DNA of 64,000 bases from a virus: positions 1 to 64,000 of the IMG/VR virus record IMGVR_UViG_3300032291_001290. One strand, given 5' to 3'. The notes beneath the pieces are model-generated. The model was not told the DNA's origin. It was given only the letters and a program-made list of their open reading frames with translations, and made no database searches. Every line of letters begins with the position of its first letter. Position 1 is the stretch's first letter. A program made the translations under genes and the position numbers. Positions 516 to 33,361 of the stretch are shown in pieces.

Positions 516-922
516 TGTATATTGGAACAAGTTTAGGTGGTTGCCTGCTTAGTCTTATGAACAAAGAAGTGTCCGAGGATGAGGTTATGATTATAATAAC
601 CCGTACCAATGCACCTGACTATGATAAATTCATTGGCGTAATTAAAGCATATCATGCACAGGGCAACCCTTTTTCTGATAATCCTGAGCGGTATGAGTTG
701 AGTGACTATGAATTAGATGATTTGATTGATCTTGCAAACAGATTATGGTATAGTGGTAAAATTCACCAACCAAGAAGTTTTTTGGGTACTACTAATTATA
801 GACACCCATTTAAACATGGTGATAAACTTTGGTTTCAAGTAGTGCCTACAATTGACAATACTACTCCGGCAGTAATAGATGCCTACGAAAAATATAAGAT
901 GTTGGATACGTTGACTAAATGA
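512..922 (+). CDS. hypothetical protein
   Basis: 136-aa ORF with ATGA overlaps on both sides. Confidence 0.7.
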   Translation: MMYIGTSLGGCLLSLMNKEVSEDEVMIIITRTNAPDYDKFIGVIKAYHAQGNPFSDNPERYELSDYELDDLIDLANRLWYSGKIHQPRSFLGTTNYRHPFKHGDKLWFQVVPTIDNTTPAVIDAYEKYKMLDTLTK

Positions 923-1179
923 GTGTTAATCCGTTACATTGGTTTGGTAATCGTGAAATAGAATATACTCCTAAGCATTTTACTTTAGCCAAAACTCCAC
1001 TCACAGAAGAATCCAAACTTTGGATATTGAACACTCTTGTTGGTAGATTTTCTGTATATCATGCTGATGAAATAGATCGGCATGATTCATTAACTGTTTA
1101 TGTTAGCCATAATATATTAGGGCGTCCTGCGTTTGAAGATCCTACTGAGGCAGTTTTTTATGAACTAACCTGGAGTTAA
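919..1179 (+). CDS. small protein of the 'F-x-L-x-W' paralog family (outlying copy)
   Basis: Ends FEDPTEAVFYELTWS and has a central WILNTLVGRF, like the 29-33 kb array. Confidence 0.7.
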   Translation: MSVNPLHWFGNREIEYTPKHFTLAKTPLTEESKLWILNTLVGRFSVYHADEIDRHDSLTVYVSHNILGRPAFEDPTEAVFYELTWS

Positions 1180-3626: not shown

Positions 3627-3896
3627 ATGATAACATGGCCGTCTGACGAGGCAACAATAATTGAATACAAAGTCTATTCAATACTAATGGGCGATGTAGA
3701 AGACCCTGATTTGATGATTGCAGAACCAATTTATAAATGGCAACAAACAGAAGCAGGTAAGTATGTAATGAAAAATTCAGCTCCTACACCAATGTGGCGA
3801 AGGAGTGTTGATACGAATTCATATGGTCATCAGTATATGATATTCGCATACTTCACCCCAAAACAATTAACATATTATAAGTTGAAATACGAATGA
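3627..3896 (+). CDS. small hypothetical protein, possibly a distant member of the F-x-L-x-W family
   Basis: Ends FAYFTPKQLTYYKLKYE. Confidence 0.6.
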   Translation: MITWPSDEATIIEYKVYSILMGDVEDPDLMIAEPIYKWQQTEAGKYVMKNSAPTPMWRRSVDTNSYGHQYMIFAYFTPKQLTYYKLKYE

Positions 3897-7578: not shown

Positions 7579-7889
7579 AAGACATTGCGAAACAACAAAG
7601 AATCAGCACAATACTATTTGTTATAGTGACAGTAATATTCTTTCTTGCTATGTGTACAGGATGTTCTACAACAGTTCCAGTCACAGCTAAATTTCCAGAA
7701 GTACCTGCTAGACTACTAGAACAATGTCCTGAAAAACTTCAAACAATTGAAGGTGACAAAATCAATATCGTTGATTTTACTAAAGTTGTAGTCACTAATT
7801 ACGGAACATACTATGAATGTGCAGTTAAAAATGATGCTTGGATAGAGTGGTATAACACTCAAAAGAAGATTTTCAACGAAGTTAAGTAA
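7575..7889 (+). CDS. putative outer-membrane spanin lipoprotein (Rz1-like)
   Basis: Signal peptide with lipobox (CTGC-S), Pro-rich FPEVP..L..CP, N...Y.EC. Confidence 0.65.
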   Translation: MKDIAKQQRISTILFVIVTVIFFLAMCTGCSTTVPVTAKFPEVPARLLEQCPEKLQTIEGDKINIVDFTKVVVTNYGTYYECAVKNDAWIEWYNTQKKIFNEVK

Positions 7890-7932
7890 TCCTAACCTAG
7901 TGATAAATACACTATAGGTCTAGGATTTTTAT

Positions 7933-8466
7933 ATGACACAACTAGTAATTAATATCGGAGCAGTTCCCAATGATGGCGAAGGCGATCCGTTACGCACGGC
8001 CTTTCAGAAAATTAATAACAATTTTACCCAGTTATTTGCTACCGGAACATTTACATATGATGCATACTCATTTGGAAATACTGCTGGTCAAATCATATTT
8101 GAAACTCCTGCTAACTTGTTTACACAAGGAACTTTTCAAATTAATTCAAGCAACCCAAACACCAATAACAGTCAGAATATTATATTAAACGTAAGTATTT
8201 CAAATGATGTAGCTAATGTTAAATGGAACGGACATAGTACCTTGCTTTTCAATACTCCAGTCACTACGTATGATGTAGATTTAGTTGGTGGAAATGTTCG
8301 TATACTAGTAAATCCTTTAGTGAATGCAAATGTATATCATTTTATTGCCGCACAAATTACATTCAGTACTGATGCTCCGGGAATACCGTTAGCACTTGAA
8401 GGATTGTCAGGGGATGTATTGGGCACAGAGACTTTAATTCCTATAACTACAGAACAAGCAGTATGA
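7933..8466 (+). CDS. baseplate/fibre-type structural protein with T4 gp9/gp10-like N-terminus
   Basis: INIGAVPNDGEGDPLRTAFQKINNNF motif; late promoter upstream. Confidence 0.7.
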   Translation: MTQLVINIGAVPNDGEGDPLRTAFQKINNNFTQLFATGTFTYDAYSFGNTAGQIIFETPANLFTQGTFQINSSNPNTNNSQNIILNVSISNDVANVKWNGHSTLLFNTPVTTYDVDLVGGNVRILVNPLVNANVYHFIAAQITFSTDAPGIPLALEGLSGDVLGTETLIPITTEQAV

Positions 8467-28533: not shown

Positions 28534-29215
28534 TTTACCCGCAAAATACGGATGTGAGTTTTGCAAACGTGACTTCTTAAAAGAAAGCACAGTGTTAAAA
28601 CACGTATGTGAACACAAACGTAGATGGATGGAAAAAGACAAGCACGGAAATCGTTTAGGATTTCAGTCTTGGATTCAGTTTTATAAAAAGAATACTGCAA
28701 GTAAAAAACATAAAACCTACGAAGAATTTATCAGTAGCGCATACTATATTGCATTTGTAAAATTTGGTAATTACTGTGTGAATATCAATGCAGTAAACCC
28801 GAGCAGATTAGTAGATTGGTTACTAAAGAATCAAATTAAAATTGACAACTGGACTAGTGATTCAGTTTACACAAAATATTTGATAGACCATTTAAAAATT
28901 GAAGATGCATTTGATGCTATACATCGTAGTGTAGAACAATGTATAACTTTAGCAACTGATGCAGGTATACAACCCAATGACGTTTTACGATATGGCAATG
29001 TCAATAAAATTTGTTATGCGATTACATCTGGTAAAATTAGTCCTTGGATGTTGTACTGTAGTGACAGTGGTGTAAAATTTTTAGAATCATTAAATCCAGA
29101 TCAAGTTAAAATAATATCAGACTATATAAATCCAGAACAATGGGCATTGAAGTTTCATCGTGAACCAAATATTAAACAACAAATCCAAGATACTCTCAAA
29201 CAAGCAGGGTACTAG
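28523..29215 (+). CDS. zinc-finger (C2HC/C2H2-like) hypothetical protein
   Basis: YGCEFCKRDF...LKHVC. Confidence 0.7.
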   Translation: MATDLPAKYGCEFCKRDFLKESTVLKHVCEHKRRWMEKDKHGNRLGFQSWIQFYKKNTASKKHKTYEEFISSAYYIAFVKFGNYCVNINAVNPSRLVDWLLKNQIKIDNWTSDSVYTKYLIDHLKIEDAFDAIHRSVEQCITLATDAGIQPNDVLRYGNVNKICYAITSGKISPWMLYCSDSGVKFLESLNPDQVKIISDYINPEQWALKFHREPNIKQQIQDTLKQAGY

Positions 29216-29396
29216 AGTACGCATACCCTGGAAGAAAGGTGATACTATTAGTGATTGGAACGAAACATGTGCATGGGCTATGGAACAGTTCGGATTACCC
29301 GGTACTAGATATTATACTCACTCAGTGGAAGATTACATGGACTTTTACTTTCACAAAGAAGAAGATGCTATTCATTTTAGTTTGAGGTGGTTATAA
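29160..29396 (+). CDS. small F-x-L-x-W family protein 1
   Basis: WAMEQFG...FYFHKEEDAIHFSLRWL; start uncertain. Confidence 0.7.
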   Translation: MNQILNNKSKILSNKQGTRVRIPWKKGDTISDWNETCAWAMEQFGLPGTRYYTHSVEDYMDFYFHKEEDAIHFSLRWL

Positions 29397-29399
29397 ACT

Positions 29400-30629
29400 A
29401 TGGAACCAATTAAATGTGATTTAGCATTCGGCTCAGTCAATGTAGTAACAAACAACAATTATACAATTTGTTGCGTAGCTAGAGACTCCGTTCTTAATAA
29501 AAAACAAAATATCAGACTTCCGCACGTTGAAAAAATTAATGTTGAACCATTGCGTGAAATTCGCAGGTCACTTATAAACGGAGAGTTCCATTCAGCGTGT
29601 AGTAATTGCCAAGAAGGTGAAAAACTTTCTTCTATCTCACTGCGTACAATATGGAACAATGCATTAGAAAAATATAATATACCTATAACCGAGTTTGTTG
29701 ATCCTAATGATATGCGATACCTAAGTTATGCTTTTGGTAATAAGTGTAATAGTAAATGCATGATGTGTGGGCCGTCGAGTAGTGATTTATGGACAGATGA
29801 ATTTAATAAAATATGGTCTAAAACCCGACGTATTCAATTACCATTAGTAACACCCTCAAGCCAAATACATAAAAATAGCATCAGTGAAATGCTTGATACA
29901 TATCCAAACTTAGAACACATAACTTTATTGGGCGGAGAACCAACTATTATCGAAGAACATGTTTTCATGTTGGAAAAATTAATTAGTCAAAATAAAAGTA
30001 AAAATATTGAGTTGTCATATGTTACTAACTTGACAGGAATTAATGATGAATTAATTAATCTTTGGGGTAATTTTAAATCTGTTGGGTTTAATGTTTCAAT
30101 AGATGGATTTGATAAAGTTAATGAATACATTAGATATCCTTTTAAATGGAATAAAACTGATACCAACTTACGCACTATACTACAACATGCTAAAGACAAT
30201 AAATCAAAATTTAGTGCTAGTCTCAGTGCCACACTAAACCTTTATAACTGCATAGATATAGGAAATCTGATTGAGTATTGGTTTAATATTAGTAAAGAAT
30301 ACGATAATTTAAATTCAGGTATTTTAATTACTAGAGTAGTATATCCTGATTATACTAATTTAAATATTAGTTCAGTAGAACATCGTCAGCAAGGTAAACA
30401 AAAATTATTTGAGTTGTTGGACAAAATTAAAAAAGAACCCTATATTAATCCGTCGTATGAACAAAATATTAATTTAGTATTAGGACTTTTGGATGAACCA
30501 AAAACAACTAATGAAGCACTAATTAATGATGCAAAATATTTTATTACAGAGTCTGACAAATATAGAAATAGGAATATAAAAGATTTTATTCCTAAATTAT
30601 ATAATGACTTGTTTAAGGATAAAGATTAA
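29400..30629 (+). CDS. radical SAM/SPASM protein (paralog of 4854..6059), inserted in the small-gene array
   Basis: CNSKCMMC, LGGEP, SIDG, EYIRYP..W motifs. Confidence 0.88.
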   Translation: MEPIKCDLAFGSVNVVTNNNYTICCVARDSVLNKKQNIRLPHVEKINVEPLREIRRSLINGEFHSACSNCQEGEKLSSISLRTIWNNALEKYNIPITEFVDPNDMRYLSYAFGNKCNSKCMMCGPSSSDLWTDEFNKIWSKTRRIQLPLVTPSSQIHKNSISEMLDTYPNLEHITLLGGEPTIIEEHVFMLEKLISQNKSKNIELSYVTNLTGINDELINLWGNFKSVGFNVSIDGFDKVNEYIRYPFKWNKTDTNLRTILQHAKDNKSKFSASLSATLNLYNCIDIGNLIEYWFNISKEYDNLNSGILITRVVYPDYTNLNISSVEHRQQGKQKLFELLDKIKKEPYINPSYEQNINLVLGLLDEPKTTNEALINDAKYFITESDKYRNRNIKDFIPKLYNDLFKDKD

Positions 30630-30884
30630 ATGTCACTTGAACAAGAACTAATGGAAAAAATGTCCAAAGAACTAGCAAAAGAAATTGACGAAGGTATTAT
30701 GTCAGACATGTTAATTGAGATTGGTTGGACTCCTGTTGAATTTTATTTTCAAGATAACTATCACGCTAACGATGTTAATTTTTGGTTGTTAAAACATTGC
30801 AAAAGTGATTGGCGTAGATTTGAAAAAAAATATTTGTTTGAAGATGTAAAAGAAGCTGAATGGTTCATATTGAGGTGGCTATGA
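30630..30884 (+). CDS. small F-x-L-x-W family protein 2
   Basis: WLLKHC...YLFEDVKEAEWFILRWL. Confidence 0.75.
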   Translation: MSLEQELMEKMSKELAKEIDEGIMSDMLIEIGWTPVEFYFQDNYHANDVNFWLLKHCKSDWRRFEKKYLFEDVKEAEWFILRWL

Positions 30885-31111
30885 ATAGCAAACAAAGACG
30901 CAAATCAAAACGTGCCCATCCTCATCATATTACTATCCATGCTCAATCAAATGAGATATACTTAGAGCATGATATAAAAGTAGTAAAGGCGTTTGAATGG
31001 TGCAAGAAAAAATGCAAAGGTCATGTTGCAAGAATTTACTTTCACGATAAAGCTATATTTAAATTTAGTAATCAAAAGGATGCAATGTATTTTGCATTGA
31101 AATGGATATGA
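30881..31111 (+). CDS. small F-x-L-x-W family protein 3
   Basis: WCKKKCKG...FKFSNQKDAMYFALKWI. Confidence 0.75.
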   Translation: MNSKQRRKSKRAHPHHITIHAQSNEIYLEHDIKVVKAFEWCKKKCKGHVARIYFHDKAIFKFSNQKDAMYFALKWI

Positions 31112-31413
31112 TTAAAAAGCGTCAAATGACTAATAAATTATACGGGACTAACGGTGGCTGGGCCGCAATGCGTAATGTGAACCATGATGGTACAGGTAGT
31201 GTGTATGGTATGCCTTACCATCAAATAACTCCAATTGTGTCTAGCGGAGAATGGAATGAAATGGTTGAATGGTGTGTGTTTACATACGGACCAAGCGGTA
31301 CAGAAAATAAACCGGGAGTATGGACACCAAATGAAAGATGGTATGCTAATAATTCTAAGTTTTGGTTTAAAGACAAAAAAGATTGTGAATGGTTTTTGTT
31401 AAGATGGCAATGA
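31102..31413 (+). CDS. small F-x-L-x-W family protein 4
   Basis: WCVFTYG...FWFKDKKDCEWFLLRWQ. Confidence 0.75.
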   Translation: MDMIKKRQMTNKLYGTNGGWAAMRNVNHDGTGSVYGMPYHQITPIVSSGEWNEMVEWCVFTYGPSGTENKPGVWTPNERWYANNSKFWFKDKKDCEWFLLRWQ

Positions 31414-31649
31414 CATATGTGCTTAATTATTTTGATGGTGCTAAAGGATGGGAAAATTCTAATCCAGGATGGCATGAAGCTATTATATACAATAACTCAC
31501 CCGATAAACATGAAAAAATGTTAGAATGGTTGTATAATAAAGTTGACAATGTTGAAAGACATGCTCGGTGGATTTGGTGCCAAGATCATGGTAAATTTAA
31601 ATTTAGATACGAGCGTGATTATATAATGTTTACATTAACATGGCAATAA
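31410..31649 (+). CDS. small F-x-L-x-W family protein 5
   Basis: WLYNKV...FKFRYERDYIMFTLTWQ. Confidence 0.75.
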   Translation: MTYVLNYFDGAKGWENSNPGWHEAIIYNNSPDKHEKMLEWLYNKVDNVERHARWIWCQDHGKFKFRYERDYIMFTLTWQ

Positions 31650-31864
31650 CTATTAAACTCAAAGATCGGCTACAGGCTGAAGAAGAACAATGGCTAGCAA
31701 AGAACATAGGACCTAGAATGCATTATCTTCATAATAGCATAGGGGGTCAAGGCTGGATAGTTAAAATGGAAAAGTATTCAAGGTATGATGTACCTAATAC
31801 TTGGACGTTAACATTAGAAGATGATAGATATGCTACAATTTTTTTATTAATGTTTCCGCAATGA
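31640..31864 (+). CDS. small F-x-L-x-W family protein 6
   Basis: WLAKNIG...LTLEDDRYATIFLLMF. Confidence 0.7.
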   Translation: MAITIKLKDRLQAEEEQWLAKNIGPRMHYLHNSIGGQGWIVKMEKYSRYDVPNTWTLTLEDDRYATIFLLMFPQ

Positions 31865-32142
31865 CTAATATACCTAAATCTTTTCAAGATTATGACGATA
31901 ATGATCCTATGATAGAGCATAGAAAGAACCGTTGGAAGTATTGGGAAGCGTTAAAAATTGTGCGTAAAGAATATATGGCATCATTGAATAAGGTAGATAG
32001 CCAGTTTGATGCCTATGACTTTGAGGATTATCTTGAAGCCAATTATGGAATAAAGATGAACATAGTAAACGGAAACATTACTGATGGGTATAAGATTATG
32101 GATGAGAAAAAATATATAATATTTTTATTAAAGTATCAATGA
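31861..32142 (+). CDS. small F-x-L-x-W family protein 7
   Basis: YLEANYG...YKIMDEKKYIIFLLKYQ. Confidence 0.7.
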   Translation: MTNIPKSFQDYDDNDPMIEHRKNRWKYWEALKIVRKEYMASLNKVDSQFDAYDFEDYLEANYGIKMNIVNGNITDGYKIMDEKKYIIFLLKYQ

Positions 32143-32351
32143 TTAATCTTAAACTAGAAATATCTGCGGCAAAAGCAATAGAACGAGCAAATGAATTGCG
32201 TGAAGCTGGCTATGTTCAGGGTATAGACTTTGATTTTAGATATCATCCTAGTACACAGGATTACTATAACGGACCAATTAAACATAGCTTTGTGCTGTTT
32301 CACTTTTACAAAGAATCATTAGCAACTTATTATGGATTAAAATGGCAATAA
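32139..32351 (+). CDS. small F-x-L-x-W family protein 8
   Basis: FHFYKESLATYYGLKWQ. Confidence 0.7.
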   Translation: MINLKLEISAAKAIERANELREAGYVQGIDFDFRYHPSTQDYYNGPIKHSFVLFHFYKESLATYYGLKWQ

Positions 32352-32626
32352 CAAAACTTACAGGTACGTTTGTACCAATACCGATCAGAAAAGATGAAAT
32401 TGATTATGTGATCCATGACCGTAATTATATGGGTAGTGGAAACAGAACATCATATGTATATGAGTGTAAAAAGAAAAAAGAAGATCCGGCTGTAATCGTA
32501 AAATGGTGTAGACGTAATTTTGGGGAAAGAGGTAGTGGTTGGGACTTTCTTTTAACGTCAGGAAATGTTACAATCATCATATGGGAAGACAAATTTAAAA
32601 CTATGTATGAACTCTGGCAACGTTAA
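32342..32626 (+). CDS. small F-x-L-x-W family protein 9
   Basis: WCRRNFG..GSGW...IWEDKFKTMYELWQ. Confidence 0.7.
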   Translation: MAITKLTGTFVPIPIRKDEIDYVIHDRNYMGSGNRTSYVYECKKKKEDPAVIVKWCRRNFGERGSGWDFLLTSGNVTIIIWEDKFKTMYELWQR

Positions 32627-32975
32627 TCTTTGTGAGGTGCGACAAATAAAAGATAGATATTCAGTTACCTGGAATAAGCACATTACTGGATTAAGTGTTT
32701 TTAGTGAGAAGGCTATAATTTTACTTGACATGATTATCAGAGATAGTAAATCTTGGGAAATAGGTATTCATTTGAGTAATGGTTATGTCTTGTGGATGAG
32801 TTGCACATTATTAAACACAATGGATACTGGACTATTAGCTGAGTATCTACAACATGCAGGCAATATAAAACATCCCGATGAAATTATAGGTGCAGTGTTT
32901 GACAACATGGATGATGTTGAAATCTTCACTAAACGATTAGAACAAAAATATATATGGCATGTGTTGAAACAATGA
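32607..32975 (+). CDS. hypothetical protein (divergent array member?)
   Basis: AVFDNMDDVEIF near the C-terminus. Confidence 0.55.
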   Translation: MNSGNVNLCEVRQIKDRYSVTWNKHITGLSVFSEKAIILLDMIIRDSKSWEIGIHLSNGYVLWMSCTLLNTMDTGLLAEYLQHAGNIKHPDEIIGAVFDNMDDVEIFTKRLEQKYIWHVLKQ

Positions 32976-33361
32976 ATAGTAAAAGATGTAATCGTTGTAA
33001 AGAAATAAAACTATTATCAGACTTTGGTAATGATAGTGGTGGTAAAAAACTACGGTCTGATTGTAGAGCATGTGACAGTATACTGGCTAAAGAACGTAGT
33101 GAAATAAAAAAAACTGCACCGTCAATACCTAACAATCATGTTTGTCCCATTTGTGAACAAACAGAAGAACAATTGAATGAAAACATTAATCCAACACTAC
33201 GCAAAAAAGGAAGACCATGGGTGATGGATCACAATCACGAACTAAAAACATTTCGCGGATGGTTATGTAGAAAGTGCAATTTGGGATGTGGTAATTTTAA
33301 AGACAATCCCGAACTATTAGACAAAGCGGCAACATATTTAAGGAATACACAAAATGGCTGA
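32954..33361 (+). CDS. endonuclease VII-like (His-Me finger) nuclease
   Basis: CPIC...MDHNH...RGWLCRKCNLGCG.FKD; N-terminal CxxC...CxxC. Confidence 0.88.
   Translation: MACVETMNSKRCNRCKEIKLLSDFGNDSGGKKLRSDCRACDSILAKERSEIKKTAPSIPNNHVCPICEQTEEQLNENINPTLRKKGRPWVMDHNHELKTFRGWLCRKCNLGCGNFKDNPELLDKAATYLRNTQNG

What the first reader, a model, noticed from the sequence alone, without database searches (positions are those of the whole stretch)
29160..32975. Tandem array of about 10 highly diverged small paralogs sharing a C-terminal F-x-F-x(4)-D/E-A-x-x-F-x-L-K/R-W motif
Seen: nine 70-105-aa ORFs, in tandem apart from one radical SAM insertion, end FYFHKEEDAIHFSLRWL, YLFEDVKEAEWFILRWL, FKFSNQKDAMYFALKWI, FWFKDKKDCEWFLLRWQ, FKFRYERDYIMFTLTWQ, LTLEDDRYATIFLLMF, YKIMDEKKYIIFLLKYQ, FHFYKESLATYYGLKWQ and IWEDKFKTMYELWQ. 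Most also carry a central W-(C/L/A)-x-x-x-x-G helix. A tenth, weaker member follows. N-termini and loops are unrelated. The array sits between the gp62-like/Zn-finger genes and the EndoVII-exonuclease-mini-DnaE genes. Inference: one small alpha/beta scaffold has been amplified and diversified, as expected for a panel of binding or adaptor proteins (anti-defence inhibitors, specificity subunits, or subunits docking on a common partner through the invariant C-terminal helix). I know of no functional description of this family.
Basis: partly seen in the sequence, partly recalled or inferred. Interest (0 to 1): 0.85.

Follow-up and report, generated by a model that had tools for sequence, protein, structure and literature searches.

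The report
Jumbo-phage array of LRW-tail mini-proteins
An uncultured giant freshwater phage carries a row of eight or nine old, very different copies of one tiny phage-only protein that no public catalogue describes; the genes are swapped in and out one at a time between related phages, but what the proteins do is untested.

Summary
The ten ORFs exist and all are under purifying selection. Six (m1-m5, m8) are demonstrably homologous: profile-profile probability is 86-97% against 0% for controls. m6 and m9 are supported, m7 is marginal, and the tenth ORF belongs to a different family.

The shared unit is a ~60-aa beta-alpha-beta-beta-alpha domain, a ferredoxin/RRM-like fold lacking the last strand, always at the C-terminus of small stand-alone proteins. 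It matches no Pfam or NCBIfam model, no consistent PHROG and no solved structure. It is large: 2,475 clusters (50% identity) in public metagenomes, 16 array copies in a complete 352-kb relative, and 32 profile matches in cultured Sinorhizobium phage Phosso.

Each paralog has its own conserved orthologs, so these are old specialised genes, not fast-evolving copies. The array sits at a fixed site between conserved replication-region genes, and its content differs between close relatives. Single genes are gained, lost or replaced exactly at the conserved gene-end junction, which also carries the next gene's start.

Function is inferred only. The most likely role is a repertoire of small binders for host takeover or counter-defence.

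This scan has already reported the same family in at least seven other phage genomes, so this is a further instance, not a first sighting.

The parts
29160..29396 (+). m1, family member (78 aa), separated from the rest of the array by the radical SAM gene
   Evidence: Own ortholog group of about 50 sequences. hhalign 86-96% to the other subfamilies. AF2 model with pLDDT 74: b18-23, a30-44, b51-55, b59-64, a67-77. In the close relative L003 this gene alone is replaced by a 62-71% DNA-identity allele between flanks of 97% and 95.6% identity.
29400..30629 (+). Radical SAM gene inserted into the array (not a family member)
   Evidence: PF04055 E=9e-10. Present in only 2 of 86 related loci.
30630..30884 (+). 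m2, family member (84 aa)
   Evidence: Falls in one BLAST cluster with m4. The own-genome profile search gives E=1e-12.
30860..31111 (+). m3, family member. The real start is probably ATG 30881 (76 aa), overlapping the m2 stop as ATGA. It is a single-gene cassette absent from L062 and L003.
   Evidence: hhalign 93-97% to m1, m2/m4, m5 and m8. Junction read. Exact deletion in L062, with the crossover inside the shared junction.
31102..31413 (+). m4, family member (103 aa), from the largest subfamily (W-C-x-x-x-[FY]-G-P...R-W-Y-x-N-N...F-W-F-[KR])
   Evidence: E=5.5e-25. Orthologs at 73-99% identity, dN/dS 0.01-0.23.
31389..31649 (+). m5, family member (86 aa; alternative starts at 31404 or 31410), E-R-H-A-R-W / F-K-F-R-Y-E-R-D-Y subfamily
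   Evidence: E=1.5e-25. dN/dS 0.15-0.34.
31640..31864 (+). m6, divergent member (74 aa; tail ...F-L-L-M-F-P-Q)
   Evidence: hhalign 89% to subfamily c29 and 94% to A2. 0 of 2000 shuffles reach its HMM score. dN/dS 0.13-0.24.
31861..32142 (+). m7, marginal member (93 aa; tail Y-K-I-M-D-E-K-K-Y-I-I-F-L-L-K-Y-Q)
   Evidence: hhalign 70% to A2 and 39% to the 225-sequence profile. 63 of 2000 shuffles reach its score. Its L003 ortholog scores E=0.0075 with the A2 profile. dN/dS 0.05-0.09.
32139..32351 (+). m8, family member (70 aa)
   Evidence: hhalign 87% to m1 and 93% to m3. Own-genome profile search E=3.8e-7.
32342..32626 (+). m9, divergent member (94 aa; W-C-R-R-N-F-G helix, tail ...M-Y-E-L-W-Q-R)
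   Evidence: AF2 model with domain pLDDT 82-88: b36-40, a49-60, b67-72, b75-80, a83-93, the same order as m1. Its BFVD neighbours overlap those of m1. 2 of 2000 shuffles. hhalign 40%.
32565..32975 (+). m10, NOT a family member. A separate small-protein family (cluster c20). The likely start is ATG 32607 (122 aa, as in its ortholog).
   Evidence: hhalign 1.2% or less to every family profile but 96% to c20. 1109 of 2000 shuffles reach its score. L003 carries a true family member at this slot instead.
30870..30884 (+). Gene-end junction TTGAGGTGGCTATGA (L-R-W-L-stop). It contains the GAGG ribosome-binding site and the ATG of the next gene, and is the left boundary of the m3 cassette.
31097..31111 (+). 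Gene-end junction TTGAAATGGATATGA (L-K-W-I-stop), the right boundary of the m3 cassette. It contains the two possible ATG starts of m4.
   Evidence: In L062 the sequence left of CTATGA follows the m2 end and the sequence right of it follows the m4 start.
32954..33361 (+). Endonuclease VII gene closing the variable region (not a family member)
   Evidence: PF02945 E=3.7e-13. Present in only 7 of 86 related loci.

Best explanation
The region is the variable accessory slot of a roughly 350-kb T4-related jumbo phage. It holds eight or nine old paralogs of an undescribed, phage-only mini-domain. Shown here: the domain is about 60 aa and folds as beta-alpha-beta-beta-alpha, a ferredoxin-like fold without the last strand. 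It is held together by an aromatic core: the W of helix 1, the F-x-F of strand 3, and the F-x-L-x-W of the last helix. It always ends the protein. Members are stand-alone proteins of 48-143 aa with unrelated N-termini and loops and pI from 4.7 to 9.9. Each paralog is a separate lineage kept by purifying selection. The genes form one co-oriented run with 4-, 10- or 25-nt overlaps, so the conserved last codons ([KR]-W-x-stop) also supply the next gene's ribosome-binding site or ATG. Related phages differ by whole-gene insertions, deletions and replacements whose breakpoints fall in that junction. Inferred, not shown: the constant core is a scaffold and the variable surfaces carry specificity. 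The array would then be a repertoire of small binding proteins, made with the replication-region (non-late) genes, each engaging a different host or defence component. The cassette-like junctions would let phages exchange single members.
For: - Family reality: subfamily profiles match at 86-97%, controls at 0%. Leave-one-out HMMs recover m1, m3 and m4 at E of 7e-4 to 4e-6 among 484 ORFs.
- Size and form: 2,475 representative clusters at E<=1e-3, all 48-143 aa with the domain at the C-terminus. No longer fused forms were found.
- Fold: AF2 models of m1 and m9 have the same element order.
- Selection: dN/dS is 0.05-0.6 for all ORFs.
- Arrays are the rule: 86 related loci have a median of 5 copies and a maximum of 16, all co-oriented. 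A complete 352-kb relative has 16 in the array plus 2 elsewhere. Cultured phage Phosso has 32 matches.
- Fixed slot, variable content: the flanks (UvsW, ZnF, exonuclease, mini-DnaE) are 60-99% identical while members differ in presence and order.
- Cassette exchange: m3 is exactly deleted in L062 at the shared TTGARRTGGMTATGA junction. The m1 allele is replaced in L003.
- Variable surfaces: pI ranges 4.7-9.9, with family median 6.2 against a background of 6.0.
- Timing: no late-promoter-like KATAAATA lies between 12.5 and 38.2 kb, although such sites occur in the structural regions.
Against: - No experiment, no characterised homolog and no fusion or neighbour of known function points to any target, so binder or counter-defence is argument by analogy.
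- The paralogs are conserved between phages rather than rapidly diversifying, which is less typical of arms-race genes.
- The fold is generic, with best structural Z of 6.0 or less.
- Expression timing is inferred only from position and the absence of a short motif whose total count is at chance.
- AF2 confidence is moderate (pLDDT 70-74).
Confidence: 0.45

Rival explanations
1. The domain is a nucleic-acid-binding module of the RRM type. The K/R-F-x-F-K/R strand would act like RNP1, and the paralogs would be small RNA- or ssDNA-binding regulators or chaperones serving the neighbouring replication and RNA-processing genes.
For: - The order b-a-b-b-a equals an RRM without b4.
- The best PDB sequence match, though not significant, is the U2AF35 RRM-like domain 1jmt (E=0.22).
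- RRMs appear among the weak structural matches: 2dgt and 2dnp in Foldseek, and 1wey, 2diu and 6exx at Z 5.1-5.5.
- m3 has an arginine-rich N-terminus with a weak lambda N-peptide match (E=0.081).
- The array lies next to a 3'-5' exoribonuclease-like gene.
Against: - No Pfam RRM hit in any of 148+10 members.
- All structural matches are at background level (Z<=6). ACT domains and de novo ferredoxin folds score the same or better.
- Charge is not biased basic: family median pI is 6.2 and m2 has pI 4.7.
- The conserved F-x-F is more simply core-facing, because it is the part conserved across all subfamilies.
Confidence: 0.15
2. The paralogs are interchangeable subunits or adaptors that dock through the shared C-terminal helix on one common phage partner, for example the conserved flanking exonuclease/mini-DnaE or the Zn-finger protein.
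For: - The array keeps a fixed position between ZnF and exonuclease/mini-DnaE in 36-40 of 86 loci.
- In Phosso a three-member cluster (XYS97294-97296) lies directly upstream of a second 'DnaE-like' gene.
- The C-terminal helix is the most conserved element.
Against: - Phosso's 32 copies are scattered in many clusters away from these genes.
- The conserved residues are the alternating aromatic and aliphatic ones expected of a fold core.
- The [KR]-W codons are also constrained by the next gene's start.
- Copy number varies from 2 to 16 per locus, which does not suit stoichiometric subunits.
Confidence: 0.1
3. The ORFs are selfish or near-neutral cassettes that persist because their junction repeats promote their own duplication and transfer, and they make no contribution to infection.
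For: Single-gene gain, loss and replacement occur at the junction. Copy number varies strongly between relatives. No function is known.
Against: - All ten ORFs show purifying selection, with dN/dS mostly 0.05-0.4.
- Each subfamily keeps its own motifs across many phages.
- The family is kept in 2,475 clusters.
- Only a few stop-interrupted copies were seen.
Confidence: 0.05

Closest known systems
The same undescribed 'LRW-tail' mini-protein family reported earlier by this scan in other uncultured freshwater jumbo phages (e1-5402646, e1-5667675, e1-5694454, e1-5877606, e1-5956011, e1-5687974)
   Same: The same motif (W-core helix plus F-x-F...D-A-x-x-F-x-L-[RK]-W at the C-terminus), the same tandem co-oriented arrays with overlapping gene ends, the same lack of any catalogue entry, and the same conclusion that function is untested.
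   Different: This is a different genome and a smaller array of 8-9 members. It is interrupted by a radical SAM gene, has a documented exact single-gene deletion in a close relative (L062), and gives a fold assignment for a divergent member (m9). I did not align the earlier arrays against this one; identity of the family rests on the shared motif and shared short words.
PeSL (promoter-early stem-loop) cassettes and modular shuffling in hyperplastic regions of T4-type phages (Arbiol et al. 2010, PMC2839356)
   Same: Non-essential small genes sit in a hyperplastic region. They are gained, lost and replaced one at a time by recombination between short repeated boundary elements (for the paper; here).
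   Different: Here there are no intergenic promoter/terminator cassettes. The genes overlap, and promoter and terminator scans are at chance. The repeated boundary is the coding end of the protein family itself, fused to the next gene's start.
Lineage-specific expansions of small domains in jumbo phages, e.g. about 35 zinc-ribbon copies in Bacillus phage G (Iyer et al. 2021, PMC7824862)
   Same: A many-copy expansion of a small stand-alone domain within a jumbo phage genome, with function only guessed.
   Different: A different fold with no metal ligands, a different phage group (T4-related group 2.2 relatives such as Atu_ph07 and Phosso), and this family is not mentioned in that survey.
Ferredoxin-like b-a-b-b-a-b domains: RRM (PF00076) and ACT
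   Same: The same order of the first five secondary-structure elements. Weak structural matches at Z 5-6, rmsd 2.4-3.3 over 56-64 residues to the tyrA ACT domain (5uyy, 5v0s), and Z 5.1-5.5 to RRMs.
   Different: The last strand is missing, there is no sequence-profile match, and RNP1/RNP2 or ligand-site motifs were not demonstrated. The Z values are within the range the tool gives for unrelated common folds.
Hypothetical proteins of cultured Sinorhizobium phage Phosso (PV764938.1), e.g. XYS97294-XYS97296 and XYS97406
   Same: They match the family profile, with best E=2.4e-9 and 32 matches at E<=0.01. They are small, partly clustered, and annotated only as hypothetical.
   Different: They are more distant (no single-sequence tblastn hit) and are scattered in many small clusters rather than one array. 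The host is a soil alphaproteobacterium.

Membership tests
   Met for m1-m5 and m8 (86-97%; E from 1e-25 to 4e-7) and for m6 (94%). m9 reaches 40% and m7 70%, both grey zone. m10 reaches 1.2% or less, so it is not met.
   AF2 models of m1 and m9. In 150 of 150 listed representatives the match runs to within a few residues of the C-terminus in nearly all cases.
   Overlaps of 4, 10 or 25 nt. 86 loci with a median of 5 copies, all on one strand.
RRM (RNA recognition motif, PF00076) | Pfam profile match with RNP1/RNP2 motifs | tested here: not met
   No PF00076 hit at E<=1 for the ten ORFs, nor at E<=0.01 for 148 representatives.
RRM (RNA recognition motif, PF00076) | Four-stranded b1-a1-b2-b3-a2-b4 fold | tested here: inconclusive
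   The first five elements are present and no b4 is modelled. Structural Z of 5.1-5.5 to RRMs is no better than to unrelated folds.
RRM (RNA recognition motif, PF00076) | RNA binding | not testable with these tools
   Needs gel-shift or CLIP-type assays.
ACT domain | b-a-b-b-a-b fold with a small-ligand site at a dimer interface | tested here: inconclusive
   Z 5.8-5.9 to the tyrA ACT domain, no Pfam ACT hit, and no last strand. Ligand binding is not testable here.
PeSL regulatory cassettes of T4-type hyperplastic regions | Intergenic sigma70-like promoter plus terminator stem-loop flanking each shuffled gene | tested here: not met
   No intergenic spaces in the array. There were 40 promoter-like sites against 42.5 expected and 6 terminator-like sites against 3.3 expected, and none lies between array genes on the + strand.

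The most novel reading that the evidence does not exclude
The array is a plug-and-play library of small inhibitors of host defence or host-takeover targets, comparable in role to anti-CRISPR/anti-defence loci. Each old paralog would neutralise a different bacterial component. The family's own dual-coded tail (last helix, next gene's ribosome-binding site and start, and recombination joint in one) would be an evolved device that lets jumbo phages trade single inhibitors without breaking operon expression.
Probability: 0.2. Interest if true: 0.8.

Novelty: new variant of a known kind. Interest (0 to 1): 0.45.

Why it matters
Thousands of sequence clusters of this mini-domain exist in public metagenomes, and a cultured phage carries dozens of copies. 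Yet it has no Pfam, NCBIfam or structural entry and no literature. Naming it would annotate a visible share of the 'dark' genes of giant freshwater and soil phages. Small, highly diversified, cassette-exchanged early proteins are also where phage counter-defence and host-takeover factors have usually been found. The family, with Sinorhizobium phage Phosso as a tractable model, is therefore a reasonable place to look for new inhibitors. The coding-sequence junction that serves as helix end, translation start and recombination site is a compact variant of the modular shuffling known from T4-type phages.

Tried and rejected
- Pfam, PHROGs and NCBIfam on the ten ORFs: nothing significant.
- Pfam on 148 representatives: only chance hits.
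- PHROGs on 148 representatives: scattered hits of single members to 15 different families, 13 of them unannotated. phrog_1325 and phrog_2803 find nothing in this genome.
- blastn of the array, and tblastn of two representatives, against 50,697 cultured phage records: no match.
- PDB sequence profiles: best E=0.22 (U2AF35) and 0.95 (BH2032), both insignificant.
- Foldseek against PDB: no hit at E<=0.001. The VIA wide search gave Z<=6.0, which is background level.
- Search for longer fused forms: none (weak evidence).
- Homodimer co-fold of the m1 domain: score 0.01, no verdict, so it counts neither for nor against.
- The A3 alignment was too diverse for the search for related loci.
- Two ORFs elsewhere in the window with similar tails (919-1179 and 3627-3896) are not supported as members: hhalign 19% and 39%, shuffles 37 and 559 of 2000.
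- ESM Atlas for m1: only unnamed viral clusters, best score 0.89.
- A uniform acidic (DNA-mimic) or basic (nucleic-acid-binding) character was considered and rejected on the pI spread.

Full report
**Source and setting.** The window is the first 64 kb of a 101,416-base IMG/VR contig that CheckV rates 29% complete, which implies a genome of about 350 kb. Its UvsW-type helicase is 50-55% identical to those of Sinorhizobium phage Phosso, Agrobacterium phage Atu_ph07, PA5oct-like and large E. coli phages.

**The observation.** All ten ORFs are present on the + strand at the stated coordinates. They are packed with overlaps of 4, 10 or 25 nt. Promoter- and terminator-like sites are at chance level. 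Pairwise comparison with orthologs from related contigs gives dN/dS of 0.05-0.6 for every ORF, so all are real genes under purifying selection.

**Are they homologous?**
- Within the window alone the signal is modest. Leave-one-out HMMs recover m1, m3 and m4 (E from 7e-4 to 4e-6 among 484 ORFs), m2 weakly, and m5 and m8 not at all.
- A profile search of 5.8 billion proteins gave 118 hits. These fall into separate ortholog groups, one per window paralog, each with its own conserved motifs.
- Profile-profile comparison of these independent groups links m1, m2/m4, m3, m5 and m8, and further subfamilies seen only in relatives, at 86-97% probability. Two unrelated control families score 0%.
- With deeper alignments m6 reaches 94%, m7 70%, m9 40% and m10 1.2% or less.
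- Against 2,000 shuffles of each sequence, the family HMM score is reached 0 times for m6, 2 for m9, 63 for m7 and 1,109 for m10.
- m10 has its own ortholog family (96% to cluster c20).
- The count is six certain members, two supported, one marginal and one rejected.

**Fold.**
- AF2 with the 78-sequence alignment gives m1 a mean pLDDT of 74. The elements are strand 18-23, helix 30-44, strands 51-55 and 59-64, helix 67-77, and the N-terminus is disordered.
- m9, modelled from its own 13-sequence alignment, gives the same order with domain pLDDT 82-88.
- The BFVD neighbour lists of m9 and m1 overlap extensively, for example A0A6J5TB89, A0A6J5NXQ2, A0A6J5KY55, A0A6J5L5Q8 and A0A6J5P0U4. All are uncharacterised proteins of uncultured phages.
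- Against solved structures there is no significant Foldseek hit. The exhaustive aligner gives at best Z 6.0 to de novo ferredoxin folds, ACT domains and RRMs, which the tool itself rates as background.
- The domain is thus a ferredoxin-like b-a-b-b-a unit lacking the last strand, with no specific relative.

**Size and spread of the family.**
- A full HMMER scan of 1.84 billion representatives finds 2,475 clusters at E<=1e-3 and 63 at E<=1e-10. All are 48-143 aa, with the match at the C-terminal end.
- No longer fused forms were found.
- No Pfam or NCBIfam model matches, and PHROG hits are scattered single cases.
- In 86 related viral loci the median is 5 copies per roughly 10 kb and the maximum 16, always co-oriented.
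- A complete 352-kb relative has 16 copies in the homologous array and 2 elsewhere.
- Cultured phage Phosso has 32 profile matches and Atu_ph07 has 2, all annotated hypothetical.

**How the array evolves.**
- The flanks are conserved across relatives: the UvsW helicase, two unnamed genes and the Zn-finger gene upstream, and the exonuclease and mini-DnaE downstream. The members between them differ in presence and order.
- The radical SAM gene occurs in only 2 of 86 loci and EndoVII in 7.
- DNA comparison with close relatives places every homology breakpoint at a gene end.
- In L062 the tail of m2 is joined directly to the start of m4. The sequence left of CTATGA follows the window's m2 end and the sequence right of it follows the m3 end/m4 start. 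m3 is therefore an exact one-gene cassette bounded by the repeated junction TTGARRTGGMTATGA.
- In L003, m1 alone drops to 62-71% DNA identity between flanks of 97% and 95.6%.
- The same junctions hold the next gene's GAGG ribosome-binding site or its ATG, inside [KR]-W, E-W or W-Q-stop codons.
- This resembles PeSL-mediated shuffling in T4-type hyperplastic regions (PMC2839356). The difference is that the repeated boundary is coding sequence, not an intergenic promoter/terminator cassette.

**Function.** Nothing here measures function.
- The conserved positions are the alternating aromatic and aliphatic residues expected of a small fold's core. The variable positions, N-termini and loops differ between subfamilies, and pI ranges from 4.7 to 9.9 with a family median equal to the genome background.
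- Together with the stand-alone small size, the fixed accessory slot among replication-region genes, the absence of late-promoter-like motifs from 12.5 to 38.2 kb and the cassette turnover, the best reading is a repertoire of small binding proteins for host takeover or counter-defence. I put it at about 45%.
- The RRM-like nucleic-acid-binding reading (about 15%) rests on topology, an insignificant U2AF35 match and weak RRM structural hits.
- A common phage partner (about 10%) is suggested by the conserved position, and by a Phosso cluster next to a second DnaE-like gene.
- A purely selfish cassette (about 5%) is contradicted by the selection data.
- A homodimer co-fold gave no verdict, and no RNA data were available.

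**Relation to earlier work of this scan.** The scan's index shows the same motif family reported in at least seven other phage genomes. The follow-ups there reached the same conclusions: real, old, common, uncatalogued, function untested, with gene ends doubling as the next gene's start and as swap joints. I re-derived the family, the fold, the dual-coded junctions and a cassette indel independently on this window. This finding is therefore a further instance, not a first sighting, and I scored it on that basis.

**Verdict.** Interest is moderate.

Noticed in passing
window 29400-30629: A 409-aa radical SAM gene (PF04055) sits inside the array. It is found in only 2 of 86 related loci, so it looks like a recent insertion into the variable slot. 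Its substrate is unknown.
   Followed up: partly
window 30855-32366 (gene junctions): The start codons of m4, m5, m6 and m9 lie inside the preceding gene's [KR/T]-W codons (A-ATG-G). The W-Q-stop ending (ATGGCAATRA) yields M-A-I/M as the next N-terminus. m1 and m2 end in TTGAGGTGG, a ribosome-binding site for the next gene. This is the subject of sister finding e1-6012806.
   Followed up: partly
window 3627-3896; L022:6559-6933, L076:3198-3578, L019:5379-5750 and others: An 89-aa ORF far from the array has relatives of about 120 aa that lie inside or beside the arrays of other phages. They end in ...A-K-L-K-x-x-D-Y-T-F-W-x-L-K-W-G, a tail like the family's. Profile links to the family are weak (39% or less).
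   Followed up: partly
window 919-1179: An 86-aa ORF ending ...A-F-E-D-P-T-E-A-V-F-Y-E-L-T-W-S resembles the family tail. It has no homologs in the fetched loci and scores only 37 of 2000 in the shuffle test.
   Followed up: partly
L091 (Phosso PV764938.1 96459-97743) and L089:16984-17559: Phosso has two short 'DnaE-like DNA polymerase III alpha' genes. One is directly preceded by three family members (XYS97294-97296), echoing the array/exonuclease/mini-DnaE order of this window.
   Followed up: no
G001:C1:263791-264021 and 123113-123337 (352-kb relative): Two profile matches are interrupted by stop codons (1 TGA plus 2 TAG, and 2 TGA). They may be decayed copies or frame artefacts of the six-frame search.
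   Followed up: no
window 30881-30925: m3 begins with an arginine/lysine-rich stretch (N-S-K-Q-R-R-K-S-K-R-A-H-P-H-H) that gives a weak match to the lambda N antitermination peptide model (PF25694, E=0.081). This is probably a composition effect.
   Followed up: no
window 12542-38162: No KATAAATA (T4-late-promoter-like) site occurs in this 25.6-kb stretch, which holds the replication-region genes and the array. 17 such sites lie in the rest of the window. The total count is at chance, so only the distribution is suggestive.
   Followed up: no
L003:3438-3695 and L003:5192-5988: The closest relative has an extra 257-bp insert between m1 and the radical SAM gene. It also has about 800 bp of different genes where this window has m3, and a true family member (7728-7973) where this window has the unrelated m10.
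   Followed up: partly
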